Shown in pieces: positions 13,514 through 57,130 of a DNA stretch of 64,000 nucleotides. The notes beneath the pieces were generated by a model, which did not search any database, was not told where the DNA came from, and saw only the letters and a list, made by a program, of their open reading frames with translations. The stretch's first letter is position 1. Every line of letters starts with the position of its first letter. Origin of the DNA: Candidatus Levyibacteriota bacterium (GTDB lineage Bacteria > Patescibacteriota > Microgenomatia > Levybacterales > UBA12049); NCBI GenBank assembly GCA_052034235.1, contig JBPOIT010000005.1:49698-113697 (forward strand), given 5' to 3'. A program made the position numbers and the translations under genes.

Positions 13514-16500
13514 CTATGGATCTACATCTAAGTCACCAGCAAGTTCGAGTAATATGTCTCTCAATCTTTCTCTTCCGGATCGAGTTGAATCTGGAACAGC
13601 TGTAGTTGTACCAGCTCTTCTTTTTTCTTCAATAGAACTTGTAACAATCTCACGTACCTGAGCATTAACCTCTTGGGTTACGTATTTTGTAATAGCTTCC
13701 TCATACATCCCATAAAGCATCGTTAGCGCCATTTTACTACCCGGATCTGTTGGATCTTCAAAATATTTTACTAAATATTCTCTCAGTCCCTCTAGAAATG
13801 GAATAGTATAAGTGTTTGTGGCTAATGTCGCATCGATAATTTCTTTATTGAGTTCAGTATCATAATAATGTTCTGGAGTAATTACACCGGGGGCAAGAAC
13901 CTTGGCTGCTAATCTATTTGCGACACTTTCCATATCGTGCATAATCGGTATTCCAACTGCCCGCTCTACTGGAATGAAAATAGCTCCTCTGGACATGACA
14001 ACTTTAGGATAAAATAAGTCTCTATCATTCACAACTGTTCCAATTCCTGGCAAATCAAATAACTGTCTACTTAAGCGACTTGCTCCTTCTGGAGTTGTAG
14101 AAGCTAATATGACATTAATATCATGTTGTATCCCTAATCCACTTGTTTCGTCAGTAATACTAGCAAGACTTTCTATCTGGTTTCCTACAGGCATATTGGG
14201 ATCACGATATGAAAGTTTATGCACAATTAAATCCCACATTTCGAGAAAAGCTTGTTGTTCTACTGCTGTCAAACCAGGTATTGGATGTCCTAATATTTTT
14301 TCCCATTTATCAGAGTCTGTAAATCGTTCTCTTACCGCTTCTTTTATAACAAGCTCTCTTTGTTCATGAATATGAGTATCAATTTGCATTATCAATGCTT
14401 CTAAGACCTTTCTTTTTGAACTTTCTTTATCAGTTGATTCGTATTCTTGAATTAGTTTATCTCTTTGCTCGTCTGCAGTAGAATTTGGTAATGTAATACC
14501 ATATTCTTGCGTTTGAGCTTCAAGACCATCTAGAGCTCCAATAACTAGACGCTCAAGAGGAGCGCTAGCTATTGCTTCTACTTCCTGACGAACCAGCTCT
14601 TTCGGGGTATCATACATACTTGATTGTGGCATAGATTTGGAATCGAACCAGGGATCAATTGTTTTTTCTAAGACTACAGGAGTCCGACCTGGGATAGAAA
14701 TTTCCTCAGTATATGTTGTAGGTTCAGTTGCATTCGGGATACGTCTTCCCCCAGTAGGATCTGATAGATGATACCATACAGCAGCATAGAGAGAATCTTT
14801 AATGTCTTGAGAGGATTTCTGTAATCTCCATATTTCTTCAGAACGTGCTTCAACAATTTTATCGATACCAACTTCCAAAGCAGTTTGTATTATCCTCCTC
14901 GTTTCTGGATCATTTATCTTATGATTATAGAATTTATAAGGATCTCCAGAATTTCCTCCACCGGGGACTTCCTTAAAACCTAGAAATCGTACACCATTAA
15001 CTTTTGAATCAAAAGCGGCATTAAGTATGCCAATTAATTTCCGCGACCACCAGTCTTCTCCACCCAAATATTTCAGTGCTTCTGAGTATTCTTTTTTTGT
15101 ATATGCTATTCCGGATGGCCCCAGATCATACAGACGCCCTTCAGGAGATACGACTAAATCAACACGAGATGGTAGATTTGCTGGATCATCAACACGAATA
15201 CAAAAAGGATCACCTTTATCTACTCTACCTATCATTGTTCCATTAGGTAAATGCCTTAATACATTTCGCGATTGTTCAGGAATACCTAGGCTATCTCCCA
15301 TTACACTAATGTCTGTTTCATCACCTAAACTAAATGTTCCTCTGAATCTGGCACTTGACAACATACTTCTTGGTGCATGACGTGGTTCTTGTCCTATATA
15401 CCAAACTGTATAACCAAATTTTCCACCTTGTAGTACATGTTCTTCCAGAATACTCGCAACTGGACTTGGACTTGTGCTATTGTTTGTGGAAGTAGCTTGC
15501 TGGCCTTCTTCTGCAATAACCAAATTAGTTAACGGACGTGGTGCAGCACTAAGTGGATCTTTCTCAAGATAAGCTTTTTCTGCAACATAATTTGTCGTTA
15601 CTGCGACAAATAATTGCTGTGCTGCAGCAGAAAGAGCATTTGTGTTTATAACAAGATTATCATCGGTAAGAGTATTTGGATCTACAGTATGATTACTATT
15701 AAATCCATCTGCACCAAATATTTCACCCAAATTTCTTTCCAACCAACCTAGGATTCTTGATTGATACTCGCCACCCTCCCCATCATATTTCAATCCTTCT
15801 TTAACAAATTTCTTACAATAATCATAGATTTCATCATTTGATGGATATAACCCTGTATCTTTATACTTATCTTTAAGACCTTTAAATGTTTTATCCAAAG
15901 AAACACCTTCTGCCAATTTTCCAGGCTTCATGCCAATTATCGCTCCATTTAAAACACTTCTAAACAAAGCTTTATCCCCGTCATCTCCTTCAAAAGTGCT
16001 CGCAAGTAAATCTGGCAAAGCAGCATAATGTTTATCCTCAGAATATCCATCAATGGGTCTGGCAAGGCTTCCAAATCCAACTGAGACATCAGCATCCCCT
16101 GCGACGACATTCCAATATATTACCTCTTTACCAGTATCTCTTATCCTATCTCCAAGAAGTCGCCAATCTTCTGCACCACTCGGAGCAAGAACAATAACTT
16201 GCATCCCTTCTCTAACCGCTCTTTCTGCAAGTTGCTGCGTAAATACTGATTTACCTTCTCTTGGTCGGCCCAACACTGTAACACCTAGCAATTGTTCTGT
16301 TGAAATCGGCAATTCCCCAAGATCTGGGCCACGATTTATGCCTAAAGCTGCATTCACAGCGGTACCAAGTCTGATCATTCGTGTTCCATCAGAAAATGTA
16401 GGAAGAACAGTGTTTGTTGTAAGTGGTCTATCATAGTCAAATCCTTTAACTTGTGTTGTTGGATATCTCATCAACTCTGCTAATTGTCCACTACTAACTA

Positions 16501-17821
16501 TTGCATCAAGTGGTACATGAGACGGAGGAAGTTGTAATGCTCCTTCTGGAATCGCTGTTACTTTGATGCTTTTTGAATCCATTGCAGATGTAAGCATATC
16601 TTGAAGTGCTGATACACGCTCAGGGCTCTGGGCAGAGACTTCAACTTCCGTTGTCCACAAAGGTTTGTCTACTTCCGCTAATTTTTTAGCTATAGCTGTA
16701 AAATCTTCCTTTACAAGTTTATCCTTTTCAGCGCCTTGTTTTGCCTTATTAGCAAATAGTTGAGCTAGACCACCTGAGTCCTCTCTCTCTTTCTTACTCA
16801 ATGGACGTGCAACAACCGATATGCTAAAGGGCTCTGTCCCGCCGTGAGTCACCAGCCATTCAGCCCAATTTTTTTCAGTTTTGGCGCCTGGCAATACACT
16901 TGTTGCAGCGCTTAACATATCACTTATTCCCTGAAAAGATTGCAAGTGTTCTGGCAAGGCAGGTGCCTCCTTCTTAAGATCAACGCGTAATTTTCCAGTG
17001 AAACGATCTGTTCTATCTGCTTGATCTAACGATATATTTGATCCTTGAGATTTTTCAGGAAATGTATGAATAGGAGAAGTACTTGTATGGCCAAAATTAG
17101 TTTCTAGAAAATAATTTTTTTCTTCATCCAACCCAAACCTGTAAGTAACCGATCCAGGAGACTGATCTGTTCGTGTCTCTTGGAGAGTTCTTGCTCTTTC
17201 ATCCAACTCACTTACGACATGAGCCGGGTCAATTTGTTGACCTATTAAGAAACTAGTAATGCGCTTTACACCAGTATATGGTACGTCTGGATTTTCAATG
17301 GGAGGAGGAGATTCTAGAAGAATACCACCGTGTAATCCTAGCTCGAATCCGCCGTCAACAATTAGCTTTCTCGTTCGCTCTCCTCGCACCAATTCTTCCC
17401 AACGATGTAATATACCTACGTTCGGATCAGTAACAGTCGGCTCTTCTTCTCGAGACTGGTGATCACGATCACTAGTTTCATTTGAAACAGATCCCGTAAC
17501 ATTAACGGGTTCTTCCTGGGGGAGCGTTACAGGCGGATTAGGTTCCCTAGGAGGCTCTACATCTGAAGTTGAAGCATGAACTGTAATAATATGCCCGTCA
17601 GGTAAACGATTAACTGTAGTAGTAGTTCCATCGGTGGCAGTTGAAAATATTCGACTCGTTGGTCCACTTCGTCTAGAAGATTCTGTTTGGTTAGGCGGTC
17701 CTGTTTGGTCAGATGTTCCTGCAATTAATTGGTCAAATGAACTAACCGGTCTTGTAGGTGGACGAGCTGGAAGTCCCGTATTTTCTGGATTCCTTCTCCC
17801 TTTTAAAAATTCCCAACTCAT
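13514..17821 (-). CDS. Tagged giant (1435 aa) multidomain protein with a central P-loop NTPase domain (FtsK/HerA/VirB4-VirD4-like?)
   Basis: N-terminal MSWEFLKGRR tag and a P/T-rich linker. Walker A is VLGRPREGKSVF. A candidate Walker B, LVIAEEGQQ, lies ~250 aa downstream. No other domain was recognised. Confidence 0.5.
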   Translation of the reverse strand: MSWEFLKGRRNPENTGLPARPPTRPVSSFDQLIAGTSDQTGPPNQTESSRRSGPTSRIFSTATDGTTTTVNRLPDGHIITVHASTSDVEPPREPNPPVTLPQEEPVNVTGSVSNETSDRDHQSREEEPTVTDPNVGILHRWEELVRGERTRKLIVDGGFELGLHGGILLESPPPIENPDVPYTGVKRITSFLIGQQIDPAHVVSELDERARTLQETRTDQSPGSVTYRFGLDEEKNYFLETNFGHTSTSPIHTFPEKSQGSNISLDQADRTDRFTGKLRVDLKKEAPALPEHLQSFQGISDMLSAATSVLPGAKTEKNWAEWLVTHGGTEPFSISVVARPLSKKEREDSGGLAQLFANKAKQGAEKDKLVKEDFTAIAKKLAEVDKPLWTTEVEVSAQSPERVSALQDMLTSAMDSKSIKVTAIPEGALQLPPSHVPLDAIVSSGQLAELMRYPTTQVKGFDYDRPLTTNTVLPTFSDGTRMIRLGTAVNAALGINRGPDLGELPISTEQLLGVTVLGRPREGKSVFTQQLAERAVREGMQVIVLAPSGAEDWRLLGDRIRDTGKEVIYWNVVAGDADVSVGFGSLARPIDGYSEDKHYAALPDLLASTFEGDDGDKALFRSVLNGAIIGMKPGKLAEGVSLDKTFKGLKDKYKDTGLYPSNDEIYDYCKKFVKEGLKYDGEGGEYQSRILGWLERNLGEIFGADGFNSNHTVDPNTLTDDNLVINTNALSAAAQQLFVAVTTNYVAEKAYLEKDPLSAAPRPLTNLVIAEEGQQATSTNNSTSPSPVASILEEHVLQGGKFGYTVWYIGQEPRHAPRSMLSSARFRGTFSLGDETDISVMGDSLGIPEQSRNVLRHLPNGTMIGRVDKGDPFCIRVDDPANLPSRVDLVVSPEGRLYDLGPSGIAYTKKEYSEALKYLGGEDWWSRKLIGILNAAFDSKVNGVRFLGFKEVPGGGNSGDPYKFYNHKINDPETRRIIQTALEVGIDKIVEARSEEIWRLQKSSQDIKDSLYAAVWYHLSDPTGGRRIPNATEPTTYTEEISIPGRTPVVLEKTIDPWFDSKSMPQSSMYDTPKELVRQEVEAIASAPLERLVIGALDGLEAQTQEYGITLPNSTADEQRDKLIQEYESTDKESSKRKVLEALIMQIDTHIHEQRELVIKEAVRERFTDSDKWEKILGHPIPGLTAVEQQAFLEMWDLIVHKLSYRDPNMPVGNQIESLASITDETSGLGIQHDINVILASTTPEGASRLSRQLFDLPGIGTVVNDRDLFYPKVVMSRGAIFIPVERAVGIPIMHDMESVANRLAAKVLAPGVITPEHYYDTELNKEIIDATLATNTYTIPFLEGLREYLVKYFEDPTDPGSKMALTMLYGMYEEAITKYVTQEVNAQVREIVTSSIEEKRRAGTTTAVPDSTRSGRERLRDILLELAGDLDVDP

Positions 17822-17943: not shown

Positions 17944-19836
17944 ATGTCTATAGCAGAAACCGGTGGTTCCGGAAACCGTGTACATAGTGGAGGATTTGAT
18001 AGAGTATCAAGCAGAGTTGTTTCACGCAGAGAATGTCGTGTTGATTCAGGTCCTGCGACATCCACAGCTAGAATTTCTGAAAGAGCTCCTGTTGTTTCAG
18101 GTCCTACGACACCCGCAGCTAGAATTACTGAAAGCACTCCTGTTGTTTCAGGTCCTACGACACCCACAGCTAGAATTTCTGAAATTAGACACCAAACTTC
18201 TCGAGTTCAAACTCCAGGAGGTGAAGCTGTTTTAGCTCCGGCTAGTGAAGTTAAACCTGCTGCTATTACGGTTAAGGATACCCCCACTATTCCAGACAGT
18301 AAACCCAGAACGAGCGTATATGGTCCCTTTCGTGATGCTTATGACGAGCCCCCAGTTGATACTACAGTAGTTTCTTCCTCTGGTGGTAGCAATGCCAGGG
18401 AAGGAGAGCCTCCTGAAATAGTCGTGGAACAGACACGTGGAGAAAAAGCGAGAAGTGCTTTAGATACCGCTGTTGATGTAGCAACATCTCCCGGTATATT
18501 ATTACCAGCTACATTGGGCGTAGGAGCACTTGCGGTATCCCACCCTGAGCAAGTAGATCGTGTTGTTGGTGCACTAAGTCACCCTGATCCCAAAGTCGTA
18601 GTAGGAACTGTAGCGGCTACTACTGTTGTAGGAATAGGTGCAAGTGCATGGAATAGGTATCTTAAAGGTATACAAAGAAGTGATAAGCCAGCACCTAGCG
18701 ATACATTATATGGCGTAGCAGCAGCAGCACCGCTAGCACATCCACAAGTACTTGATGGACTATCAACTTTAGCTCATGATCCAAAATTTCTTGTAGGTGG
18801 AGCGGTAGTATTTGCTTTAGGAACAGTATTGCCAGTTAATCAAATGATGTCAGAATTTGGTAATTCAGCTATGGAAATAGTAAATAGAGACAAATCTCAA
18901 CCAACACCAAGACATGCAAGGCGTAAACCAGATAGCACAGAATTAATAGGTAGTTTACCAAGAAGTATAAAGGACGCAGTAGTTAACGTACCGGGCCTAG
19001 CAAAGAGAACAGCAGAAAGAGCACAGTTAAATGTAAAAGACGCTTTAGGTGGTGATCTAAGTGCAGTGTTTAATAGATTCCCTATTTCATCAGATGAAGT
19101 AGTAAAGCTAGAAGATAGATATAGAACTTTATACAGCCCATCTCGTTTAGGAATTAGTCAGTATTATACCTTAACCAATTTTGCCAAATTTGGTACTCTA
19201 GCTACAGTTACATCCGCCATCGAATCAGCAGGTATCACAGTTCCACCTGCTGTGGCCGGAGTAATTATTATTGGAAGTAGCAGAAAAGATTTTAAGACAG
19301 CAAAGAAGGAGGTTAAACAAACTCAAGATGATATGAGATTATGGAATTTTAATCGGGCTGCTGCAATAGGTGGAGCAAAAATGGGTGGATTTAAACTTCT
19401 ATTCGGAAGTGCTGGAATAGGAACTTCTTCATTAGCAATTAGTGAATCTTTTGATGTACCAAGAGGAACAACTTCTCTCACATTATGGACTGTAACAGGA
19501 GGTTTATTATGGGATGGCACTCGCTCATTACGTCGTGAACGTGTACGGGCACAAATTACGAATCGCTATGATAATAGAAAGGATAAATTATTAGCCAGAG
19601 GGAATGCAACTTTAAAAAGATATAACGATCTAACTAAACGATTAGATAGTGAAACAGATCCCTCAAAAGCAGCTAAATTACGCGGAGAAAAGGATGAAAC
19701 CTTTAATAGACTACTAGTATTAACAAAAGCCGGTTATGACGGAAAAGCTAAATTTCCTCATTTCGCTGCAGAAACCAAAGAGCATGGGACAATATATGTA
19801 CCTCAAGGCGAATGGCTTCATGGTAAAAGTTCATAA
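17944..19836 (+). CDS. Hypothetical protein with an N-terminal 17-aa tandem repeat and hydrophobic, probably membrane-associated, segments
   Basis: N-terminus MSIAETGGSGNR. Three repeats of SGPxTxxARIxExxPVV are present. Hydrophobic stretches include ILLPATLGVGALAV and VVVGTVAATTVVGIGASAW. Confidence 0.5.
   Translation: MSIAETGGSGNRVHSGGFDRVSSRVVSRRECRVDSGPATSTARISERAPVVSGPTTPAARITESTPVVSGPTTPTARISEIRHQTSRVQTPGGEAVLAPASEVKPAAITVKDTPTIPDSKPRTSVYGPFRDAYDEPPVDTTVVSSSGGSNAREGEPPEIVVEQTRGEKARSALDTAVDVATSPGILLPATLGVGALAVSHPEQVDRVVGALSHPDPKVVVGTVAATTVVGIGASAWNRYLKGIQRSDKPAPSDTLYGVAAAAPLAHPQVLDGLSTLAHDPKFLVGGAVVFALGTVLPVNQMMSEFGNSAMEIVNRDKSQPTPRHARRKPDSTELIGSLPRSIKDAVVNVPGLAKRTAERAQLNVKDALGGDLSAVFNRFPISSDEVVKLEDRYRTLYSPSRLGISQYYTLTNFAKFGTLATVTSAIESAGITVPPAVAGVIIIGSSRKDFKTAKKEVKQTQDDMRLWNFNRAAAIGGAKMGGFKLLFGSAGIGTSSLAISESFDVPRGTTSLTLWTVTGGLLWDGTRSLRRERVRAQITNRYDNRKDKLLARGNATLKRYNDLTKRLDSETDPSKAAKLRGEKDETFNRLLVLTKAGYDGKAKFPHFAAETKEHGTIYVPQGEWLHGKSS
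18046..18200 (+). repeat. In-frame 57-nt tandem repeat, ~2.7 copies
   Basis: tcaggtcctgcgacatccacagctagaatttctgaaagagctcctgttgtt is repeated with a few substitutions. Confidence 0.7.
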
Positions 19837-21528: not shown

Positions 21529-22683
21529 TTATTTTTCTTCAAATAAATTAGCAATTTCCTGAAAATAATTTTTAGAATTTATTGTAGTAAATACATGAGG
21601 TAACGGGAAAATATTTTTATTGCCACCGCTTTTTTTCATTTTCATTTCTATACAAATATATTTTTTTTTATAGTCCTCCAAAACTAGATCAATTTCTTGT
21701 CCACCATATTCTCTATAAAAAAACATTGTCTGTTTTGCATTATTATTCTTTCTTTTCTTCTCAATCTCAGCGACGATAAAATTTTCAAATACTCCCCCTT
21801 TATCAGGACGGAGATCTAACTCTCTAAAGTCTTTGACTAAAATATTTCTTATACCGAGGTCATAAAAATATAGTTTTCTATTTTCAGATACTGCTTTTCT
21901 TTGATTTGTTTTAAAAGATGGGAGAGGAATAAGAATATAATTTTTGATAAAAATTTCAATGTAGTTAGAAACAGTTACGGCATTTGCTCCTAGACTATTT
22001 GCGAGTTCTCGCACAGATACTTCTGAACCAATTTGCAATGCAATTTTTGTTAAGATGTCTTTTGCTAATTTTTCATTCTTTAAATCATAAATGTTGATTA
22101 TATCTTTTAGAACATACGTATCTAAAATGTTTTGTAATAAATCCATTTTATCTGTCTCAGCAATCGTATTTTTTGAATATACTTCAGGAAACGAACCAAA
22201 TATCTGTAAAGAATTAAAGATTTTTTCATAAAAACTCTGTCTTTCATACTCTTCAATGTATGTATTCTCATTAATTTCATACAGAGAAAGTGGTAAGCAA
22301 TAACTTTCAGTAAACCTCCCTGCAAGCGTGTCAAAATTTGCTGATTTTTGTCTTAGTTCACTACTACCTGTCGCAATGACTTTTACATTAAACTCATCAT
22401 AAAGAATTTTCAGTGCAACAGTACTTTCTGGATAATTTTGCACTTCATCAATAAGTATTACTTTATGAGCTAAGGCAATTTTCTCAAGATTATCTCTGGT
22501 TGCAGTAAACGATGCTTGATCAGAAATTAAGTCAAAATTAAATACTGGAACTGACAGTTTTGAAGCTATATCTTTTAATATTGTTGTTTTCCCGGACCGT
22601 CTTGGTCCCCATATAAAAAATATTTTTTTACTGTCCCCTTTTAAATAATCTTGCACCTGATTTTCAATATATCTTTGTAACAT
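21529..22683 (-). CDS. AAA+ ATPase of the COG1373 family (AAA domain plus DUF4143)
   Basis: Walker A is GPRRSGKTT, Walker B is ILIDEVQ, and a C-terminal DUF4143-like region contains YFYDLGIRN. Confidence 0.6.
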   Translation of the reverse strand: MLQRYIENQVQDYLKGDSKKIFFIWGPRRSGKTTILKDIASKLSVPVFNFDLISDQASFTATRDNLEKIALAHKVILIDEVQNYPESTVALKILYDEFNVKVIATGSSELRQKSANFDTLAGRFTESYCLPLSLYEINENTYIEEYERQSFYEKIFNSLQIFGSFPEVYSKNTIAETDKMDLLQNILDTYVLKDIINIYDLKNEKLAKDILTKIALQIGSEVSVRELANSLGANAVTVSNYIEIFIKNYILIPLPSFKTNQRKAVSENRKLYFYDLGIRNILVKDFRELDLRPDKGGVFENFIVAEIEKKRKNNNAKQTMFFYREYGGQEIDLVLEDYKKKYICIEMKMKKSGGNKNIFPLPHVFTTINSKNYFQEIANLFEEK

Positions 22684-22868: not shown

Positions 22869-22929
22869 AATCCCGAAATATTGTTAGAATTATATTATTT
22901 AGAACTTTATTAGTTTCAATATATATCTG

Positions 22930-23001
22930 TGAGCCCCGGGGGACTCGAACCCCCAACCAATACCTTAAGAGGGTACTGCTCTACCATTGAGCTAGAGGCC
23001 C
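22930..23001 (-). tRNA. tRNA-Lys (anticodon CUU)
   Basis: The reverse complement is GGGCCTCTAGCTCAATGGTAGAGCAGTACCCTCTTAAGGTATTGGTTGGGGGTTCGAGTCCCCCGGGGCTCA. It folds as a cloverleaf with anticodon loop CTCTTAA. Confidence 0.85.
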
Positions 23002-30308: not shown

Positions 30309-30710
30309 ATGAAATATCTGCTCCGTCGCATTTTCATTTGTACGTTCGCGCTCTTTTTATTGCCCGCGCTTATTCCTGGTTTTAATGTCTCTGGGGGTAT
30401 TTGGATGATGCTTTGGGGAGGCATTACACTTGCATTAATGTTTTTTATTCTCAAACCTGTTCTTAATCTCCTCACTTTTCCCGCTCACCTTATGACACTT
30501 GGTTTGTTCTCAATCTTTAACAGTGCACTGATTTTATATTTACTCACCGTATTTGTCAGTCAAATCACTATTGAAGCTTTTATCTACCCTCGAATGGATC
30601 TTGCAGGTGTAATTATTCCGTCACTGACTTTTAACACATTTTTGGCTTACATTTACTCTGCTTTTGTGTTATCATTCATTGATTCTATACTCTCATGGCT
30701 GATGGACTAA
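30309..30710 (+). CDS. Small 4-TM membrane protein (DUF360 / phage-holin-4-like)
   Basis: Four hydrophobic helices in 133 aa. Confidence 0.4.
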   Translation: MKYLLRRIFICTFALFLLPALIPGFNVSGGIWMMLWGGITLALMFFILKPVLNLLTFPAHLMTLGLFSIFNSALILYLLTVFVSQITIEAFIYPRMDLAGVIIPSLTFNTFLAYIYSAFVLSFIDSILSWLMD

Positions 30711-47309: not shown

Positions 47310-48132
47310 ACTTTTTTTTCTTCAACTTTGTAAATCTATAATGAACTCTTCTATCTGAACGCAATATCCAATAAGCTGTCATAACAATCCAAACAAGAAA
47401 AGCCAACACCGGAAGTTTTTGTATGATGCCTACATACTGTGGCATATTAAATACAGCAAATAACGCACTTGTTAAACCTGCTACAAGTATTATCATACTT
47501 ATGACAAATGAATATTTAGAAGCATTATTAAGGTTTTTGTTTGAAGAGAAACTATAGCTAAAAAGCCATAAAGCAATAACCGTGAATGAGGCTGTGAGAA
47601 GTACGATAATGATATGTGCATGACCGTTTGTTGAACGTGAGAGTTGCAGGGCATCCATGGGCACTACAATTAACAGCAGACTTGTGACTGCAGACATTGC
47701 TAAGTACAAAGCTCCAAGTCTTGCAAACATATTGTGCAACCGAAGCACAAGAACCACTGAAAAGAGTAATAAATTTACGTTATAAAGTCTGTACAAAGGA
47801 ACTGTAATATCCTCATAAAGTGAATAAGGCGATATGAGAAAACTTATTTCCTGAAAATACAATGTATGCAGAGAATTAAACAAACCTCCAAAAGTTACCA
47901 TTAAAAGAAAGACAATAACTGTTATGATCCCGTAGATGGCAATAAATATATTTTCGACTTTAATCATCTGTAAGAAATATTTAAGAAACGCGTAATAATA
48001 TAGTAGTATAAATAATTCTACATGACAAATGGCTCTGCAATGATGTATAGTTAAAAAAGAGCAAATATTTTTCGTACGTATGCACATAACGTACCTCGTA
48101 TTACTTGGACTTTCGGTTGTAATAAATAGCAT
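47287..48132 (-). CDS. Hypothetical polytopic membrane protein
   Basis: Hydrophobic throughout. Confidence 0.4.
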   Translation of the reverse strand: MLFITTESPSNTRYVMCIRTKNICSFLTIHHCRAICHVELFILLYYYAFLKYFLQMIKVENIFIAIYGIITVIVFLLMVTFGGLFNSLHTLYFQEISFLISPYSLYEDITVPLYRLYNVNLLLFSVVLVLRLHNMFARLGALYLAMSAVTSLLLIVVPMDALQLSRSTNGHAHIIIVLLTASFTVIALWLFSYSFSSNKNLNNASKYSFVISMIILVAGLTSALFAVFNMPQYVGIIQKLPVLAFLVWIVMTAYWILRSDRRVHYRFTKLKKKKSMKKKHL

Positions 48133-49825
48133 CTTACTCGTTATTTTCTACCGTCATTCTCAGAAAAACACGACAACCCTTTCATTATTTACACTTTTAG
48201 CGTTGGTAAACATTTGGTTTTTGCCGAAATTTCTCACAAACGCGTTTCATCCAACCAACGAGATATTTGAAAACTTAAGTAGAATTTCCGCCCTTGGGTA
48301 CATTTTTGTTCCATCTACTCTCCTTATATTTGCCCTTTCGTTCGGTTTTTATATTAATTTACTCCACAGACTATCATTCTGGCTGCTGCTTTATATTCCC
48401 CCTCTAATATTTTTATTTCTCTCATGGTCTTCTGACCTCGTTGGAGTACATTCGTATGAAACTGCTATGCGATATGCATGGGGTTATGAGACCCCTACAG
48501 GTCCATTATGGGGCTTTTATATGTTCTGGTATGACCTTATGGTACTTGCGTCAGTACTCGTTCTCACTCGGTATTACAAAACGATGATTGACCAGACAAA
48601 ACGAAAGCAAGCACTTTATTTTATATTCGCAATCACAATACCCTTAGCCATTAACACGTTTACTGTAGGTGTGCTTCCGATATTTGGTATTTTTCTCTTT
48701 CCGATCGGTCTCTTGCTTATTGATATTGTCACAGTTGTAGGGATAGCACTTATTATTAGATACAATTGGCTTGAAGTATCGCCATCAATCATTCTTTCAA
48801 ATTTGAACCAGGCAATATTAACAGTCGATACTAAGGGAAGAATTATTCAGACCAATCAATTCGCTGAAAAATTATTAAAACGTAATAATCTGGATATGAA
48901 AGGTACCTCACTGGAGAAAATATTAATTGTTAAAGACAACGACAAGAGAAAAAGTAATCACTGCATGCAGCTCGTGAACCTCGTGTTATCGCGTGGAAAA
49001 AGTATGACATTTGATTCGTTTTCAGTACTTCTCAACGGGAAACATGAATTCACTGATACAGTTTCAATAACACCAATTTATGAAGGCAATAGTGTCATTG
49101 GTGCCAATGTATTTCTCCAGGACACAAGAAAAGAAAAAGAACGGGAAAAATTAAAAGATGATTATTTCTCTATGCTTTTTCACGAATTAAAAAGCCCAAT
49201 GACAAGCATAAAAGCATATAATCAGGTATTAGCAGGAAGATTCAGTGATACAACCATTGAGAATAAAAGGCTTTTTATAAACATGGACAAACAACTGGAT
49301 AGATTGACGAGGCTTATAAACGATTTTTTCGAACTTTCCAAACTTCAGTCAGGAAAAATTACATTAAAGAAAGAATTTTTTGGTGTTGATGATTTTGTTC
49401 AGGATGTTATAGAAACGATGCAAATCACGCATAAAAAGCGAAAATTCATCCTTAAAGGACATTCCAATAGTGTTGTGTACGCTGACAAAGATAAAATTGA
49501 ACAAATCCTTCTCAATTTTATAACCAATGCATTGAAATTTTCTCCCGATGACGGAGAAATTATTATTCATCTAGCAGCCGATCCTTTAAAAGTCACCATT
49601 GGTGTGCAAGATTATGGAAAAGGAATTCACCCAAAATTTCACAAAAAAATCTTTGAACGATTTTTCCAAATCGAACAAAATGCAAAGCAAAAAAATGGAT
49701 TGGGCATTGGGCTTGCGATTACCAGTGCTATAGTCAAAGCACATGCTGGAAGAGTATGGGTTAACTCAAAATTAGGCAAGGGAAGCACTTTTTACTTCAC
49801 TCTCCCTGTCAGTAAATTCTCATGA
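48080..49825 (+). CDS. Sensor histidine kinase (multi-TM N-terminus, PAS, HisKA, HATPase_c)
   Basis: H-box FHELKSPMTSI. G-boxes DYGKGIHP and GLGIGLAITSAIVKAHAGRVWV. Confidence 0.7.
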   Translation: MHITYLVLLGLSVVINSILLVIFYRHSQKNTTTLSLFTLLALVNIWFLPKFLTNAFHPTNEIFENLSRISALGYIFVPSTLLIFALSFGFYINLLHRLSFWLLLYIPPLIFLFLSWSSDLVGVHSYETAMRYAWGYETPTGPLWGFYMFWYDLMVLASVLVLTRYYKTMIDQTKRKQALYFIFAITIPLAINTFTVGVLPIFGIFLFPIGLLLIDIVTVVGIALIIRYNWLEVSPSIILSNLNQAILTVDTKGRIIQTNQFAEKLLKRNNLDMKGTSLEKILIVKDNDKRKSNHCMQLVNLVLSRGKSMTFDSFSVLLNGKHEFTDTVSITPIYEGNSVIGANVFLQDTRKEKEREKLKDDYFSMLFHELKSPMTSIKAYNQVLAGRFSDTTIENKRLFINMDKQLDRLTRLINDFFELSKLQSGKITLKKEFFGVDDFVQDVIETMQITHKKRKFILKGHSNSVVYADKDKIEQILLNFITNALKFSPDDGEIIIHLAADPLKVTIGVQDYGKGIHPKFHKKIFERFFQIEQNAKQKNGLGIGLAITSAIVKAHAGRVWVNSKLGKGSTFYFTLPVSKFS

Positions 49826-52771: not shown

Positions 52772-55480
52772 TTATTTAGTAATGAGGGCTTTGAGTATCT
52801 CAATTTCTGCTTTTAATTCGTCAATTTGTTTTTGTTGTTCTTTTGTTGACTCAACAAGTACTGCTGTCATTTTTTCGTAGTCAACTGATTTGGTTCCGTT
52901 TGCATCTGTTTTTACTACTTCTGGGAATAGTTCTTCAAGATCCTGAGCAATAAATCCTATATTTTTACCTTCTCCAGGTGCACTTTCTGTGTCTTTTAGT
53001 AAGTCATAACGTACACCTTGAGCTTTCAAAACTCTTGGCAAGACATTTGTTATGTCAGTGATATTGGTTTTTAGTCTTCTATCTGAAGGTGTACCTGAAC
53101 ATTTAACAACATTATCAGATGCATCTATACATAGTGCATCTGCAGTTGCAGTTGTAAGTCCATTGATAACTAAGAATGAATCAGTATCAGTTACAACTGT
53201 AACATCGTTTGTACTACTTGGAGAAAGTGTTGAGGAACCATTGGTCGTAAGTGTCCCTATAGAGATAGAGTTGGCCGTTAAAGTTCCGTTTGTTTGTACG
53301 TTGCCATTCGAACCATTGATAGACCAATTTGTGCCTACAACATCATTCGCACCTACAGAGAGAGCTGCACCAATTTCAGCATCTGAAACATCTATTGCTG
53401 TATTGATTCCTCCACTTTCAGATTGGACTTTTAAACCAACTGGGAGAGTTTCATCTGTATCTAAATTGTCAATTGCAATGAGTTGTGAAGGTGTATTTAC
53501 CCCAGCTCCATTCTGTAGATTAAAAGCCGTGTAGCCGGTAGCACCACTTGCAGTATTAACATTTACATTAGAATCTGTTGTAGTGTCGCTTAATGTATAT
53601 GTTATATCTCTAGCATTTGTAGTACTTATTGTGTTGCCTGTATTATAAGAATCCTGAAGAGATCCGCCACCGCCTGAGGATGCACATAATATTAATTGAC
53701 TTGTGCCGTCAATACATAAAGCTGTACCTGATGCACTTGATAAACCATTTATTATTACTGCAGAATCACCATCAGTACTAAAAATTACATCATTTGTGCT
53801 ATTTGGTGAGAATACTGTATTGCCATTTGCTGTAAAGGCTTCACCTGCGACAACATTGAATCCACCATTGGCTGTTAAATTATTATTTACTGTTGTTGTT
53901 CCAACTCCTGAACCAAGATTAAGACTAGCTGCTGCTCCCCCAAGATTTATAGTCGTTGCATTCGTATTAAAAAGATTTGCTGTTGATGATGTTGTTATAA
54001 GATCACCACCGTTTACCGACAAATCACTTGCAGCTGTTACATTGCCGCTTAATGTACTTGTTCCCTGAACAACGAGGGTTCCATCACTTTGAATATTTCC
54101 GGTATCACTTATCGTCACACCTGTTAAACCGTAACCGCCTCCTATTGAAGTAGCATACATACTTACAGTCGCATTGTTAGCATTAATGTTAAATGCATTT
54201 GGGAAACTTACCGTGTTATTTCTCATAGTTACACTTCCACCATTTGCACCTATTGAAACACTCGTGGCTGCTCCTCCCAGATTGAGTGTGGTTACACTGC
54301 TGTTGAGAATATTAGCTGTAGCGGCAGTTGATGTAATATCTCCACCGCCAACTGAAACATCTCCACTTGTCTGAATATTACCACTAGCACCATTGATAGC
54401 CCAATTTGTGCCGTTGAGATCGTTTGATCCGGCTGAAAGTGCATTTACAATGTCTGCATCTGAAGCATCAACTGCATTCGTTAAGCCACCAGCTTGTACA
54501 TTAAATGCTAACCCATTTGGCACAGATTGGTTTGTATCAAGATTTTCGAGTCTTAATAGTTGTGAAGGTAATTCTATATTTGCATTATCATTGCGGGTAA
54601 TTGCGACTGTGTTATCTGACGCAATATAGACTCTAAAATCACTATCAGTTACTGTATCTTCAAGACCAAATTGAATATCCCGGCTGTCAGTGGTTGTTAT
54701 ACCATTCCCAATATCATAAACTGTTTGCAATGTACCACCCCCACCTGATGCTGCGCATTTAATTAACTGGTCAGAACCATTGACACAGAGTGCATCTCCG
54801 GATGAGGTAACCAAACCTGGTAAATTGACTGTTGAGTCAGTATCGGAATTTATCGTGACATCATTGGTACCTGAAGGGCTAAAGTTGCTACTACCAGAAG
54901 CTGTAAATGTATTATTCACATTGACGACATTATTAGTTGTAACTGAATTATTTGCGACAATTGGCCCATTAGCAGTCATTGTGCCAGTTGTTGTAAGTGT
55001 TCCACTGACATTCAAACTACCACTTAACGTTGTTAAACCAGTTCCCAAGAAGCTATATGTTGGATTTGTGGTTGTATTTCCAAATGAAATATTCTCAGTA
55101 GCGTTTGTTGTTTTAATTTGCAAATATTTTATTGCTCCCTGTTGGACATAAAATGCATTTGCGTTGTTATCTGCTGTACTTACTGCAACCGAAGTTCCGG
55201 ACAAAGAAGCGGCGTCTCCTCCGTCTCCTAAGTTAAGTATCCCATTTGCTGTGAGAGTTGAATTAAATGTTTGTGCACCTGTCCAAGTATTTGCATTTCC
55301 AGTATTTAGTTGAAGTTTGTATGGATTTGCGGCAGACCCAGCTCCTGTTCGTGTGAGTGTGGTATTAAATGTATCAACGACTTCGTTTCCGACATTTGCA
55401 TCAGCTGCATACGCCTGAACTGGGATAAAGACAGTAACGAGTGCAATAAGAAAATATATGGGCAGAGCTTTTAAAGACAT
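52772..55480 (-). CDS. Secreted tail-fibre-like adhesin with three ~130-aa repeats and a C-terminal peptidase S74 intramolecular-chaperone domain
   Basis: Signal peptide. T/N/G/S-rich beta-repeats. Three repeats each contain FSP(S/N)xTNDV…ALC(V/I)(N/D)…(K/L)C(A/S)…SGGGG. The C-terminus SDRRLKTNITDITNVLPRVLKAQGVRYDL…NIGFIAQDLEELFPEVV…VDYEKMTAVLVE matches the S74/endosialidase chaperone domain. Confidence 0.7.
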   Translation of the reverse strand: MSLKALPIYFLIALVTVFIPVQAYAADANVGNEVVDTFNTTLTRTGAGSAANPYKLQLNTGNANTWTGAQTFNSTLTANGILNLGDGGDAASLSGTSVAVSTADNNANAFYVQQGAIKYLQIKTTNATENISFGNTTTNPTYSFLGTGLTTLSGSLNVSGTLTTTGTMTANGPIVANNSVTTNNVVNVNNTFTASGSSNFSPSGTNDVTINSDTDSTVNLPGLVTSSGDALCVNGSDQLIKCAASGGGGTLQTVYDIGNGITTTDSRDIQFGLEDTVTDSDFRVYIASDNTVAITRNDNANIELPSQLLRLENLDTNQSVPNGLAFNVQAGGLTNAVDASDADIVNALSAGSNDLNGTNWAINGASGNIQTSGDVSVGGGDITSTAATANILNSSVTTLNLGGAATSVSIGANGGSVTMRNNTVSFPNAFNINANNATVSMYATSIGGGYGLTGVTISDTGNIQSDGTLVVQGTSTLSGNVTAASDLSVNGGDLITTSSTANLFNTNATTINLGGAAASLNLGSGVGTTTVNNNLTANGGFNVVAGEAFTANGNTVFSPNSTNDVIFSTDGDSAVIINGLSSASGTALCIDGTSQLILCASSGGGGSLQDSYNTGNTISTTNARDITYTLSDTTTDSNVNVNTASGATGYTAFNLQNGAGVNTPSQLIAIDNLDTDETLPVGLKVQSESGGINTAIDVSDAEIGAALSVGANDVVGTNWSINGSNGNVQTNGTLTANSISIGTLTTNGSSTLSPSSTNDVTVVTDTDSFLVINGLTTATADALCIDASDNVVKCSGTPSDRRLKTNITDITNVLPRVLKAQGVRYDLLKDTESAPGEGKNIGFIAQDLEELFPEVVKTDANGTKSVDYEKMTAVLVESTKEQQKQIDELKAEIEILKALITK

Positions 55481-55589: not shown

Positions 55590-55622
55590 AAAAAAGCTCC
55601 TTTTGGGAGCTTTATTGTTTTT
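55590..55622. terminator. Rho-independent terminator hairpin flanked by A- and T-runs (bidirectional)
   Basis: The sequence reads AAAAAAGCTCC-TTTTG-GGAGCTTTATTGTTTTT. Confidence 0.55.
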
Positions 55623-55708: not shown

Positions 55709-55978
55709 TTAACTCCCTATTTGTTGTTTCAAATGATCCATAATCCACATTCGCGCAAGTGTAGTAGGTCCTATTCCTTTCTCCTGTGCTATCTCTCGGA
55801 TTTTATTTAATGTTGGTTCGTCAAATCGGATAGTTATGCCCTCTGAAAGATTCTTTGCAAATCTAGCCTTTACAGTTTTGAATTCATGTTGGTAATCTGC
55901 CATATCATGCGTTTCGAACCAAAGAGCTTCCTCTTCTCGATTTTTAAATTCTGGAATAGTTTTTTGTTTTTGTGTCAT
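55709..55978 (-). CDS. brnA: BrnA antitoxin (CopG/RHH-like)
   Basis: 89-aa protein downstream of BrnT. It shows the conserved BrnA C-terminal helix. Confidence 0.55.
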   Translation of the reverse strand: MTQKQKTIPEFKNREEEALWFETHDMADYQHEFKTVKARFAKNLSEGITIRFDEPTLNKIREIAQEKGIGPTTLARMWIMDHLKQQIGS

Positions 55979-55984
55979 TTTACT

Positions 55985-56263
55985 TCACCCCCCTTTTTCT
56001 AGTTTATATATTCTTTGTTCTTTTTTACTTGCATGTCGAGCAGTTACAGGATAATAAATACCCCTCTCTTCCTCTGCATCAAGTATAACTGCAATAAGCT
56101 TTTTATTATTTGTTAGTCCTATGACAAGTAATCTTCCCTTTTTGCCTTCCTGTACTAATGCATTATTATGACAAATAAATTCTACTTCCTCAGGTACAAT
56201 GTCATGCCTAGCTATATGCGCAATATTCCATGAATCCCAGATAAGTTTCTTAATATCTAGCAC
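55985..56263 (-). CDS. brnT: BrnT toxin (RelE-fold ribonuclease, DUF497)
   Basis: 92 aa. Sequence WDSWNIAHIARHDI…LLVIGLTNNKKLIAVIL. Confidence 0.55.
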   Translation of the reverse strand: MLDIKKLIWDSWNIAHIARHDIVPEEVEFICHNNALVQEGKKGRLLVIGLTNNKKLIAVILDAEEERGIYYPVTARHASKKEQRIYKLEKGG

Positions 56264-56504: not shown

Positions 56505-56843
56505 CTATAAAGTATTTTTTATTGTTTCTATTTGCTCTTTAAGCGATGGAATTTTTTGTGTTATTGTTTTCCATACAATATCTTCATCTACTTCTGTATA
56601 TTGATGAATGAGTATATCTCTCATACCTGCCATCTCCTTCCATGGGATATTTGGATGTTTTTGTTTAAAATCGTCAGGTATTCTCTTTGTTGCTTCACCT
56701 ATAATCTCAAGTTTTCTTTCAACAAATCCTTGAAGTAATTCTGAATCCTTAAATTTTTCTTTTGTAATTCCTTCTATTTGAGTTTGAATCGAGGTAATTG
56801 CTTCAGATATATGAGTTATATACAATATGGGATTCTTCGTCAT
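56505..56843 (-). CDS. hepT: HepT toxin (DUF86, nucleotidyltransferase substrate-binding)
   Basis: Rx4HxY motif RDILIHQY. The gene overlaps mntA by 4 nt. Confidence 0.65.
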   Translation of the reverse strand: MTKNPILYITHISEAITSIQTQIEGITKEKFKDSELLQGFVERKLEIIGEATKRIPDDFKQKHPNIPWKEMAGMRDILIHQYTEVDEDIVWKTITQKIPSLKEQIETIKNTL

Positions 56844-57130
56844 AGAAGTAGATATTGATTATTCAAAACAGAATCCTTAATGATTGGAGAAATACTCTTA
56901 TATGTAACAATATCTACCTTCTTATTTAGTTCTTCTTCAAGACTAATCTTTAATCCTCCTAATTCAAAAAGTGTTGCACTATCTGGTAGTTCAACAAGAA
57001 TATCAATATCACTTTCTTCAGTGTTATCACCTCTTACATAAGAGCCAAATAATGCTGCTTTCTTTATATCGGCTTGCCTTAATAACGGAAGCGCTTTCTT
57101 TTTAATTTCTTCCAAAATAGCTTTATTCAT
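56840..57130 (-). CDS. mntA: MntA antitoxin (minimal nucleotidyltransferase)
   Basis: LFGSYVRGDNTEESDIDILV matches the GSx9-13DxD signature. Confidence 0.65.
   Translation of the reverse strand: MNKAILEEIKKKALPLLRQADIKKAALFGSYVRGDNTEESDIDILVELPDSATLFELGGLKISLEEELNKKVDIVTYKSISPIIKDSVLNNQYLLL

What the first reader, a model, noticed from the sequence alone, without database searches (positions are those of the whole stretch)
52772..55480. Phage-type tail-fibre protein with an S74 intramolecular chaperone domain, a signal peptide, and three Cys-containing repeats, encoded in a chromosomal context
The C-terminal ~100 aa (SDRRLKTNITDI…NIGFIAQDLEELFPEVV…VDYEKM…) match the autoproteolytic chaperone domain of endosialidase/T5 tail fibres. 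The body has three ~130-aa repeats, each with a conserved Cys pair (ALC[VI][ND]…[KL]C[AS]…SGGGG). No other phage structural genes are nearby; instead TA modules and tRNAs flank it. It may be a domesticated host-attachment adhesin, or a remnant of a degraded prophage.
Basis: partly seen in the sequence, partly recalled or inferred. Interest (0 to 1): 0.55.

Follow-up and report, generated by a model that had tools for sequence, protein, structure and literature searches.

The report
Exported phage-like fibre adhesin gene
A probable CPR (Patescibacteria) bacterium carries an intact, selectively maintained chromosomal gene for a secreted fibre protein that ends in the self-cleaving folding domain of phage tail fibres, making it a candidate surface adhesin and not a prophage leftover.

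Summary
The 902-aa ORF at 52772-55480 (-) is real. Its C-terminus is a full-length Peptidase_S74 intramolecular-chaperone domain (58 bits vs cutoff 22; Ser799/Lys804 in an invariant SDRRLK). It starts with a Sec-type signal peptide (…AYA|AD), and its only six cysteines form three conserved i/i+10 pairs.

The repeat description was wrong. There are two ~250-aa repeats (43% identity, period 357 aa) plus a third partial copy abutting S74, not three ~130-aa repeats.

No phage genes lie within the 64-kb window or in three other independent contexts of orthologues. dN/dS against an 87%-identical orthologue is 0.14. Phages share only S74, plus rare copies of the N-terminal block.

The closest known analogue is the Bdellovibrio MAT fibre family (signal peptide, conserved N-terminal region, trimeric fibre, S74 tip). 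I could not test homology of the N-terminal domain, and the canonical MAT capping loop is replaced here by the Cys module.

UvrA relatives place the window in Microgenomates-group CPR bacteria.

Verdict: a Sec-exported, S74-matured trimeric surface fibre, probably an adhesin. It is a new variant of a known kind, of moderate interest.

The parts
52772..55480 (-). Complete ORF, 902 aa: exported fibre protein precursor
   Evidence: The identical protein is present in public assemblies (P0001).
55406..55480 (-). Signal peptide, aa 1-25 (MSLK / hydrophobic core / QAYA|AD)
   Evidence: Sequence features. The AxA|AD site is conserved in P0002, P0004, P0005, P0007, P0167, P0186 and P0254.
55031..55405 (-). 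Conserved N-terminal block, aa 26-150 (VGNEV..TLTRTG..PYKLQLNxGNANTWTGxQTF … ENISFGNTTTNP)
   Evidence: Highly conserved in alignment A2, with dN/dS 0.066. The same block is internal and repeated in giant fibre proteins of other lineages and occurs in 13 viral contigs.
54896..55030 (-). First beta-strand repeat stretch, aa 151-195
   Evidence: T/N/G/S-rich composition. Only strands are predicted, in a low-confidence model.
54746..54895 (-). Cys module 1, aa 196-245 (…LPGLVTSSGDALCVNGSDQLIKC; C232/C242)
   Evidence: dN/dS 0.056.
54356..54745 (-). Y domain copy 1, aa 246-375 (uncharacterised ~130-aa domain, LQxxYxxGN…DTxTDS…PSQL…NLD…GTNW)
   Evidence: No Pfam match. Model pLDDT 62, with no fold match.
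53825..54355 (-). Central beta-strand repeat stretch, aa 376-552
   Evidence: It gives many repeated matches in giant proteins. Among the highest dN/dS in the gene, 0.25.
53675..53824 (-). Cys module 2, aa 553-602 (C589/C599)
   Evidence: dN/dS 0.036.
53282..53674 (-). Y domain copy 2, aa 603-733
   Evidence: dN/dS 0.28, with unusually low dS of 0.15.
53087..53281 (-). Cys module 3, aa 734-798 (…VINGLTTATADALCIDASDNVVKCSGTP; C784/C794). This is the predicted distal tip after cleavage.
   Evidence: It aligns to the MyRF pre-ICA capping region (a weak match with overall E=0.04). Phage fibres lack the Cys pair.
52775..53086 (-). Peptidase_S74 intramolecular chaperone domain plus C-terminal coiled coil, aa 799-902. 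Catalytic Ser799 is at 53084-53086 and Lys804 at 53069-53071.
   Evidence: S799-K804 invariant. dN/dS 0.047.
55593..55613 (-). Terminator-like hairpin between the BrnA antitoxin gene and the fibre gene. It suggests the fibre gene is its own transcription unit.
   Evidence: consensus scan only.

Best explanation
The gene encodes a Sec-exported precursor of a homotrimeric, phage-fibre-like surface fibre of a CPR (Microgenomates-group) bacterium.

Proposed sequence of events:
1. The signal peptide is removed after Ala25.
2. Outside the cytoplasm, the C-terminal S74 domains of three chains associate and nucleate C-to-N folding of the beta-rich shaft.
3. The Ser799/Lys804 dyad cuts the chain before Ser799 and releases the ~104-aa chaperone.
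4. This leaves a mature, very acidic 773-aa chain (aa 26-798) per subunit. Its distal end is the third Cys module, with the Y2 domain just behind it.
5. The three Cys pairs probably form short disulfide-stapled loops, which fits folding outside the cell.
6. The fibre most likely acts as an adhesin, plausibly for the cells on which CPR bacteria live.

What is shown: the domain identities, the conserved catalytic motif, the conserved signal sequence, the cellular context and purifying selection.

What is inferred: trimerisation, autocleavage, disulfides, retention on the cell surface and the ligand.
For: - S74 match over the full model and well above cutoff. It aligns to solved S74 chaperones with the SDxxxK motif in register. 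S799-D-R-R-L-K804 is invariant in five orthologues.
- The signal peptide with its AxA|AD site is conserved across the sub-family, including 250-440-aa minimal versions built as signal peptide, N-block, then S74.
- The Cys pairs are conserved in the family and absent from cytoplasmically folded phage fibres.
- dN/dS is 0.14 overall and 0.04-0.07 in the N-block, Cys modules 1 and 2, and S74.
- Four independent genomic contexts are all cellular.
- The window also carries UvrA, UvrC, RsmB/F, an RNB-domain exoribonuclease (RNase R/II type), ABC-F and tRNAs.
- Precedent: Bdellovibrio MAT fibres have a signal peptide, a conserved ~130-aa N-terminal domain, a trimeric fibre and S74 with an SDxxxK motif. 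Autoprocessing and surface localisation were shown experimentally for them (PMC10769870).
- The named UvrA relatives at ~79-80% identity include Levybacteria/Levyibacteriota, Roizmanbacteria and 'Patescibacteria group', but also labels from unrelated phyla.
Against: - No structure supports the trimer. The monomer AF2 models are poor (pLDDT 44 and 62).
- No anchoring device is evident: no LPXTG, no lipobox and no C-terminal anchor. The N-terminal block is an internal junction module in other proteins and not a dedicated anchor. The fibre could therefore be released and not displayed.
- No ligand-binding fold was identified.
- The signal peptide was judged by rule, not by a trained predictor.
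- Taxonomy rests on one marker protein, and some of its hits carry discordant MAG labels.
Confidence: 0.65

Rival explanations
1. An ordinary phage tail fibre, or the last surviving gene of a degraded prophage or island integrated at tRNA-Glu.
For: - The S74 domain is typical of phage fibres, and PHROG tail-fibre families match.
- The tRNA-Glu 3' end points towards the TA modules and the fibre gene.
- TA modules often mark mobile islands.
- The N-block and a weak Y-like domain occur in a few genuine phage contigs (L124, L113).
Against: - No capsid, portal, terminase, tail or integrase gene lies in the 64 kb.
- There is no att-like repeat of the tRNA end.
- The downstream synteny is cellular and conserved in L001 and L030.
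- Orthologues sit in three other cellular contexts.
- dN/dS is 0.14 with no disruptions.
- A conserved Sec signal peptide does not fit a virion protein assembled in the cytoplasm.
- Phage similarity covers at most 16% of the protein.
Confidence: 0.05
2. The receptor-binding fibre of a phage-tail-like particle (tailocin or extracellular contractile injection system) encoded elsewhere in the genome.
For: S74-bearing fibres are used by eCIS and tailocins (general knowledge; the eCIS catalogue PMC12923769 appeared and was not read). Only 64 kb of the genome is visible.
Against: - The conserved signal peptide and conserved Cys pairs imply export as an unfolded chain, whereas tail-like particles assemble in the cytoplasm.
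- No sheath, tube or baseplate gene lies in any of the four contexts.
Confidence: 0.07
3. An exported fibre with a non-adhesive role: a structural surface fibril or matrix component, or a secreted glycan-degrading tailspike-like enzyme.
For: - Export and S74 maturation are compatible with any trimeric beta-helical product. S74 was first described on endosialidase, which is an enzyme.
- The two Y domains have unknown function.
- No anchor is evident.
Against: - No hydrolase or lyase family was detected.
- The mosaic architecture with interchangeable modules, and the lower synonymous divergence in the distal segment, resemble receptor-binding proteins.
- The characterised cellular analogues (MATs) are adhesins (PMC10769870).
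Confidence: 0.18

Closest known systems
Bdellovibrio bacteriovorus MAT (mosaic adhesive trimer) fibres, S74 subgroup, e.g. Bd3182 (Caulton et al. 2024, PMC10769870)
   Same: - A cellular (non-phage) gene with a signal peptide.
- A conserved beta-rich region of ~125-130 aa directly after the signal peptide.
- A long modular beta-rich shaft.
- A C-terminal S74 domain with an SDxxxK motif.
- Mosaic evolution.
- Short relatives of the window protein (P0234, P0250) carry the published capping-loop motif (VGIGTTNPAAKL).
   Different: - The organism is a probable CPR bacterium, not a proteobacterial predator.
- Homology of the N-terminal region to the MAT N-domain could not be tested.
- The window protein has no canonical capping loop. 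A Cys-pair module sits in its place.
- It carries two copies of an uncharacterised Y domain.
- No paralogues are visible in 64 kb, whereas HD100 has 21 MATs.
Phage S74 tail fibres and tailspikes: K1F endosialidase, T5 pb1, Salmonella phage S16 gp37 (PDB 6F45)
   Same: The C-terminal intramolecular chaperone domain with its Ser-Lys dyad and trailing helices is shared. A loosely similar 'NG..AT' stretch lies before the cleavage site.
   Different: - The phage proteins have no signal peptide, are encoded in virion modules and lack the Cys pairs.
- The rest of the window protein has no counterpart in 50,697 phage records at E<=1e-5, apart from one beta-repeat match.
Myelin regulatory factor (MyRF) ICA domain, PDB 7DC3
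   Same: The S74-type trimerising, self-cleaving domain is preceded by a capping region. In the HMMER alignment, DEALVVHGNVKVMG corresponds to ADALCIDASDNVVKC.
   Different: MyRF is a eukaryotic membrane-bound transcription factor. The match is weak (E=0.04), and the biology is unrelated.
Giant 'beta strand repeat-containing' surface proteins of CPR, Elusimicrobia, Omnitrophota and others
   Same: They share the N-block, beta-repeats, Cys module and Y domain, often in many copies.
   Different: - They are 1,200-4,900 aa long and mostly lack a terminal S74.
- Some begin with an HTH-like N-terminus.
- The window protein is a compact version bounded by a signal peptide and S74.

Membership tests
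Peptidase_S74 / intramolecular chaperone domain (PF13884) | Profile match above the curated threshold | tested here: met
   58 bits vs 22, covering model positions 1-58 of 58 at aa 799-857.
Peptidase_S74 / intramolecular chaperone domain (PF13884) | Catalytic Ser-Lys dyad in an SDxxxK motif | tested here: met
   S799-D-R-R-L-K804 is invariant in 5 orthologues. It is in register with 6F45 and 8JOV, and more weakly with 7DC3.
Peptidase_S74 / intramolecular chaperone domain (PF13884) | C-terminal position followed by a helical (coiled-coil) tail | tested here: met
   The domain ends the protein. A helix is predicted at aa 868-901 (low confidence), and the sequence there has a heptad-like pattern.
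Peptidase_S74 / intramolecular chaperone domain (PF13884) | Trimerisation-dependent autoproteolysis | not testable with these tools
   This needs expression of the wild type and an S799A mutant.
MAT (mosaic adhesive trimer) fibre superfamily | N-terminal signal peptide | tested here: met
   The n/h/c regions and the AxA|AD site are conserved in orthologues. This is a heuristic judgement; no SignalP was run.
MAT (mosaic adhesive trimer) fibre superfamily | Conserved ~130-aa beta-rich domain right after the signal peptide, homologous to that of Bd MATs | tested here: inconclusive
   A conserved 125-aa block does follow the signal peptide. No Bd MAT N-domain sequence or model was reachable, because AFDB was unavailable. 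In other lineages the block is an internal junction module.
MAT (mosaic adhesive trimer) fibre superfamily | Capping-loop motif V-G-G/N-pi-x-x-P-x-x-x-L in the beta-helix | tested here: not met
   A regex search finds none in the window protein or its close orthologues. The motif is present in the short relatives P0234 and P0250. A Cys module occupies the pre-S74 position.
MAT (mosaic adhesive trimer) fibre superfamily | Variable tip, either S74 or another domain | tested here: met
   The window protein ends in S74. The relatives P0254 and P0186 end in a coiled coil only.
MAT (mosaic adhesive trimer) fibre superfamily | Surface display and a role in cell-cell recognition | not testable with these tools
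   This needs localisation and binding experiments.
Phage virion tail fibre | Encoded within a phage or prophage structural module | tested here: not met
   No phage genes lie in the 64-kb window or in three other contexts.
Phage virion tail fibre | Full-length similarity to known phage fibres | tested here: not met
   Coverage is at most 16% in 467 phage records, and the 80 best IMG/VR loci match S74 only.

The most novel reading that the evidence does not exclude
CPR (Patescibacteria) bacteria, which are thought to live attached to other microbes, use Sec-exported, S74-self-cleaving, disulfide-stapled phage-fibre-like trimers as host-cell recognition adhesins. The distal modules (Y domain plus Cys module) would be exchanged by recombination to retarget host range. 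This would be a MAT-like system in a monoderm-type ultra-small bacterium, and a specificity determinant additional to type IV pili.
Probability: 0.3. Interest if true: 0.65.

Novelty: new variant of a known kind. Interest (0 to 1): 0.4.

Why it matters
How CPR episymbionts choose and hold their host cells is largely unknown. Published work centres on type IV pili (for example PMC12206443, seen). This protein is a compact, cloneable fibre with a built-in folding and cleavage reporter (S74), and is therefore a concrete candidate for binding assays.

It also shows that the solution of a signal peptide plus a phage-type self-cleaving fibre, described for Bdellovibrio predators, extends to another lineage that lives on other bacteria. 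A shared pool of fibre modules (N-block, Cys module, Y domain) circulates between giant cellular surface proteins and, rarely, phages.

If it turns out to be just a generic surface fibril, the finding is ordinary.

Tried and rejected
- Full-length AF2 monomer model: mean pLDDT 44, unusable.
- Y-domain model from 13 repeat copies: pLDDT 62, pTM 0.36. Foldseek against PDB and BFVD gave nothing below E=0.8.
- AFDB fold search, meant to reach Bd MAT N-domains: the library was not available.
- Word-indexed homologue search with the N-block alone returned a single hit, a wasted search.
- The MAT paper's supplement holds capping-loop sequences but no N-domain sequences.
- The ~216-aa gene downstream of the fibre in L001 and L114 was tested as a possible conserved partner. 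The two genes are unrelated.
- The island-at-tRNA idea: no att repeat and no integrase.
- The metagenome scan added only one relevant locus, a duplicate of L114.
- Cluster look-ups gave no taxon names for the short relatives.
- PADLOC matched only the MNT antitoxin (PDC-S09) and a distant ATPase (PDC-S01) among the neighbours. Neither is linked to the fibre.
Full report
**Observation**

The window has a single uninterrupted ORF at 52772-55480 on the minus strand, encoding 902 aa. Pfam Peptidase_S74 matches aa 799-857 over the entire model at 58 bits, against a gathering score of 22. A profile of five orthologues aligns to solved S74 chaperone structures: phage S16 gp37 6F45 (E=1e-9), 8JOV, and weakly MyRF 7DC3 (E=0.04). 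The SD(R)RxK motif is in register in each.

The protein is T/N/G/S-rich. It has only six cysteines, at 232/242, 589/599 and 784/794.

The N-terminus (MSLK, a 17-residue hydrophobic core, then QAYA|AD) has the form of a Sec signal peptide. The AxA|AD junction is conserved in all full-length orthologues and in short relatives. This was judged by rule, because no trained predictor was available.

Self-comparison shows:
- two long repeats, aa ~151-400 and ~506-757 (43% identity over 252 aa, period 357 aa);
- a third, partial copy (aa ~720-797) that contains only the Cys module and abuts Ser799.

**Anatomy**

Using HMMs built from the orthologue alignment, the protein reads as follows:
- signal peptide (aa 1-25);
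- N-block (aa 26-150);
- beta-repeats;
- Cys module X1 (aa 196-245);
- Y domain 1 (aa 246-375);
- beta-repeats;
- X2 (aa 553-602);
- Y2 (aa 603-733);
- X3 (aa 734-798);
- S74 plus coiled coil (aa 799-902).

Pfam recognises nothing except S74. Orthologues differ by whole modules: 620, 726 and 751 aa with one X-Y unit, and 897 and 902 aa with two.

**Context**

From 29.7 to 63.5 kb every ORF with a family assignment but one belongs to a cellular gene family:
- upstream region: CofD, solute-binding protein, UvrC, transglutaminase-like, UvrA, PIN, sigma-70 region 4, RsmB/F;
- approaching the fibre gene: HAD, bestrophin-like, DUF998, histidine kinase, GT4, aldose-epimerase-like;
- beyond it: BrnA/BrnT, HepT/MNT, tRNA-Glu, an MS-channel-like protein, tRNA-Lys, ArsP-type permease, ArsR, ABC-F.

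The exception is a Phage_holin_4_2-domain ORF at 30309-30710. It stands alone next to CofD, with no other phage gene, so I do not read it as a prophage marker. The first 26 kb adds an RNB-domain exoribonuclease (RNase R/II type), a CAP-domain protein and several large ORFs with no family.

No duplicate of the tRNA-Glu 3' end and no integrase was found. A terminator-like hairpin separates the antitoxin gene from the fibre gene.

Orthologues lie in three further cellular contexts, none with phage genes:
- a Cu-ATPase/MFS/two-component neighbourhood on a 143-kb contig;
- a contig with response regulators, a histidine kinase and ribosomal proteins S6/S18 with SSB;
- an MFS/glyoxalase neighbourhood.

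The 87%-identical orthologue is syntenic with the window.

**Organism**

Named relatives of the window's UvrA at ~79-80% identity include Ca. Levybacteria/Levyibacteriota, Ca. Roizmanbacteria and 'Patescibacteria group'. There are also one Saccharimonadales label and several soil-MAG labels from unrelated phyla, which I suspect are mis-binned contigs. Levyibacteriota sit in the Microgenomates group of Patescibacteria. Genome hits to the fibre's modules are also mostly CPR. I take the source to be a Microgenomates-group CPR bacterium, with moderate confidence.

**Is it a functional gene?**

Against the L001 orthologue, dN/dS is 0.14 overall. By module:

| Module | dN/dS |
|---|---|
| N-block | 0.066 |
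| X1 | 0.056 |
| X2 | 0.036 |
| S74 | 0.047 |
| Central beta-repeats | 0.25 |
| Y2 | 0.28 |

This is purifying selection on an intact gene and does not fit a decaying remnant.

Synonymous divergence is 0.32-1.4 in seven flanking genes but only 0.12-0.26 across aa ~600-800 of the fibre. I read this, tentatively, as more recent shared ancestry of the distal part through recombination.

**Relation to phages**

tblastn against 50,697 phage genomes gives 467 records. None covers more than 16% of the protein, and nearly all matches fall at aa ~770-900. The 80 best IMG/VR loci match only S74 and carry no N-block, X or Y module.

Dedicated scans found the other modules only rarely in viral contigs:
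- The Y domain occurs in 3 viral contigs. One of them (L113) is a genuine phage, with the weak match in a 1,374-aa protein in its tail region.
- The N-block occurs in 13 viral contigs. L124 is a genuine phage with portal and prohead protease genes and a weak tail-protein match (E=2e-5), and a 782-aa protein carries the block internally.

Phage S74 fibres aligned to the C-terminus share S74 and a loose 'NG..AT' stretch but not the Cys pair. The protein therefore draws on a module pool shared with phages, but the gene itself is cellular.

**Wider family**

An exhaustive HMMER search of 1.84 billion representatives found 59,576 proteins at E<=1e-3, 20,588 at E<=1e-10 and 224 at E<=1e-30. Many are giants of 2,000-4,900 aa with many matched stretches.

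Within the best 150, a sub-family has the architecture signal peptide, N-block at the N-terminus, then terminal S74, and ranges from 343 to 902 aa. P0254 (251 aa) and P0186 have the same start and keep the Cys module, but end in only the coiled coil, without an SDxxxK motif.

In other lineages the N-block is an internal, often repeated junction inside giant fibres. It is therefore not a dedicated anchor.

**Comparison with the known**

The closest described system is the Bdellovibrio MAT fibre family. It has a signal peptide, a conserved ~130-aa beta-rich N-terminal domain, a trimeric beta-helical shaft with capping loops, and either S74 (SDxxxK; autoprocessing shown for Bd3182) or other tips. 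The fibres are surface-exposed and implicated in prey recognition. Supplementary Table S3 of that paper lists members in Omnitrophica, Myxococcales, the FCB group and others, but none in CPR (PMC10769870).

The window protein works like an S74-type MAT, but membership is not established:
- N-domain homology could not be tested.
- The canonical capping-loop motif is absent from the window protein. The short relatives P0234 and P0250 do have it (VGIGTTNPAAKL, VGIGTSSPGQKL).
- In the MyRF alignment the Cys module occupies the capping-loop position. I infer from this that the module is a diverged, Cys-stapled version of that element.

No paper in the searchable library links S74 or MAT fibres to CPR bacteria.

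**Mechanism**

The proposed steps are:
1. Sec export and signal-peptide cleavage after Ala25.
2. Trimer nucleation by the S74 domains and C-to-N folding of the shaft.
3. Cleavage before Ser799 by the Ser799/Lys804 dyad, releasing a ~104-aa chaperone.
4. A mature acidic 773-aa subunit (58 D/E vs 13 K/R), whose distal end is X3 with Y2 behind it.
5. Adhesion to an unknown ligand.

The S74 identity, the catalytic motif, the signal sequence, the context and the selection are shown. Trimerisation, cleavage, disulfides, surface retention and the ligand are inferred from the S74 and MAT literature.

The weakest link is anchoring. There is no sortase motif, lipobox or obvious wall-binding domain.

**Verdict**

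This is a real, functional, cellular gene for an exported S74-matured fibre. The prophage-remnant reading is rejected, and the adhesin reading is plausible but unproven. It is a new variant of a known kind (cellular S74 fibres of the MAT type), of moderate interest.

Noticed in passing
window 53087-53674 (aa ~600-800 of the fibre): Synonymous divergence from the L001 orthologue is 0.12-0.26 here, against 0.5-1.0 in the rest of the gene and 0.32-1.4 in seven flanking genes. This suggests recent recombinational exchange of the distal Y2-X3 segment.
   Followed up: partly
L002 12295-15631; P0007 context; window 48080-49825: Two-component genes (response regulators, histidine kinases) lie next to the fibre gene in two orthologue contexts. 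A HisKA_7TM kinase lies three genes away in the window. This may be a regulatory link or a coincidence.
   Followed up: no
window 55709-56263 and 56505-57130: Two type II TA pairs lie back to back: BrnA/BrnT-like and MNT/HepT. They sit between the fibre gene and tRNA-Glu. The MNT component matches PADLOC candidate system PDC-S09.
   Followed up: partly
window 21529-22683, next to tRNA-Lys(ctt) 22929-23001: An AAA_14/DUF4143 ATPase strongly matches PADLOC candidate defence family PDC-S01 (E=8e-87).
   Followed up: no
window 4934-7741, 7846-10158, 13514-17821, 17944-19836: Four large ORFs (935, 770, 1,435 and 630 aa) have no Pfam family at all, and none carries the fibre modules.
   Followed up: no
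L003 110-12514 (Ca. Roizmanbacteria): A 4,134-aa ORF has an S74 domain (SDARFK at residue ~3504 of the stop-to-stop frame) followed by ~670 more residues. S74 is thus internal and not C-terminal, which is unusual for a self-cleaving chaperone.
   Followed up: no
L017 3419-13081 and L022 3275-10639 (Ca. Levyibacteriota); P0014: Giant fibre-module proteins (3,221 and at least 2,455 aa) begin with an HTH/MerR-like N-terminus (…LTVQEAANYLHVSTQTLRRWDE…). P0014 is even labelled 'MerR family regulator'. This is an odd fusion of a DNA-binding-like head with a huge fibre body.
   Followed up: no
P0254 (251 aa), P0186 (353 aa): These relatives have the signal peptide, N-block and Cys module but end in only the C-terminal coiled coil, without an SDxxxK motif. 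They would be non-cleaving versions of the fibre.
   Followed up: partly
L001 2942-3592: The 87%-identical strain has an extra 216-aa gene with no family between the fibre gene and the aldose-epimerase-like gene, which the window lacks. It is unrelated to the 217-aa gene at the same position in L114.
   Followed up: yes
L124 6897-9245 (IMG/VR phage contig with portal and prohead protease): A 782-aa phage protein carries the N-block internally (…VTGNEVTNATNATLTRLGAGTSGDPYTLGLNLANANTWTAAQNF…). It also starts with a signal-peptide or lipoprotein-like N-terminus (MKNALLRLILLIALPCLAQ).
   Followed up: partly
window 30309-30710: An ORF with a Phage_holin_4_2 domain stands alone next to CofD, with no other phage genes around it. 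I do not read it as evidence of a prophage.
   Followed up: no
window 52772-55480: The protein has 25 N-x-S/T sequons. A GT4 glycosyltransferase and an aldose-epimerase-like gene lie just downstream in the window and in L001, but not in the other orthologue contexts. Glycosylation of the fibre is conceivable but unsupported.
   Followed up: no
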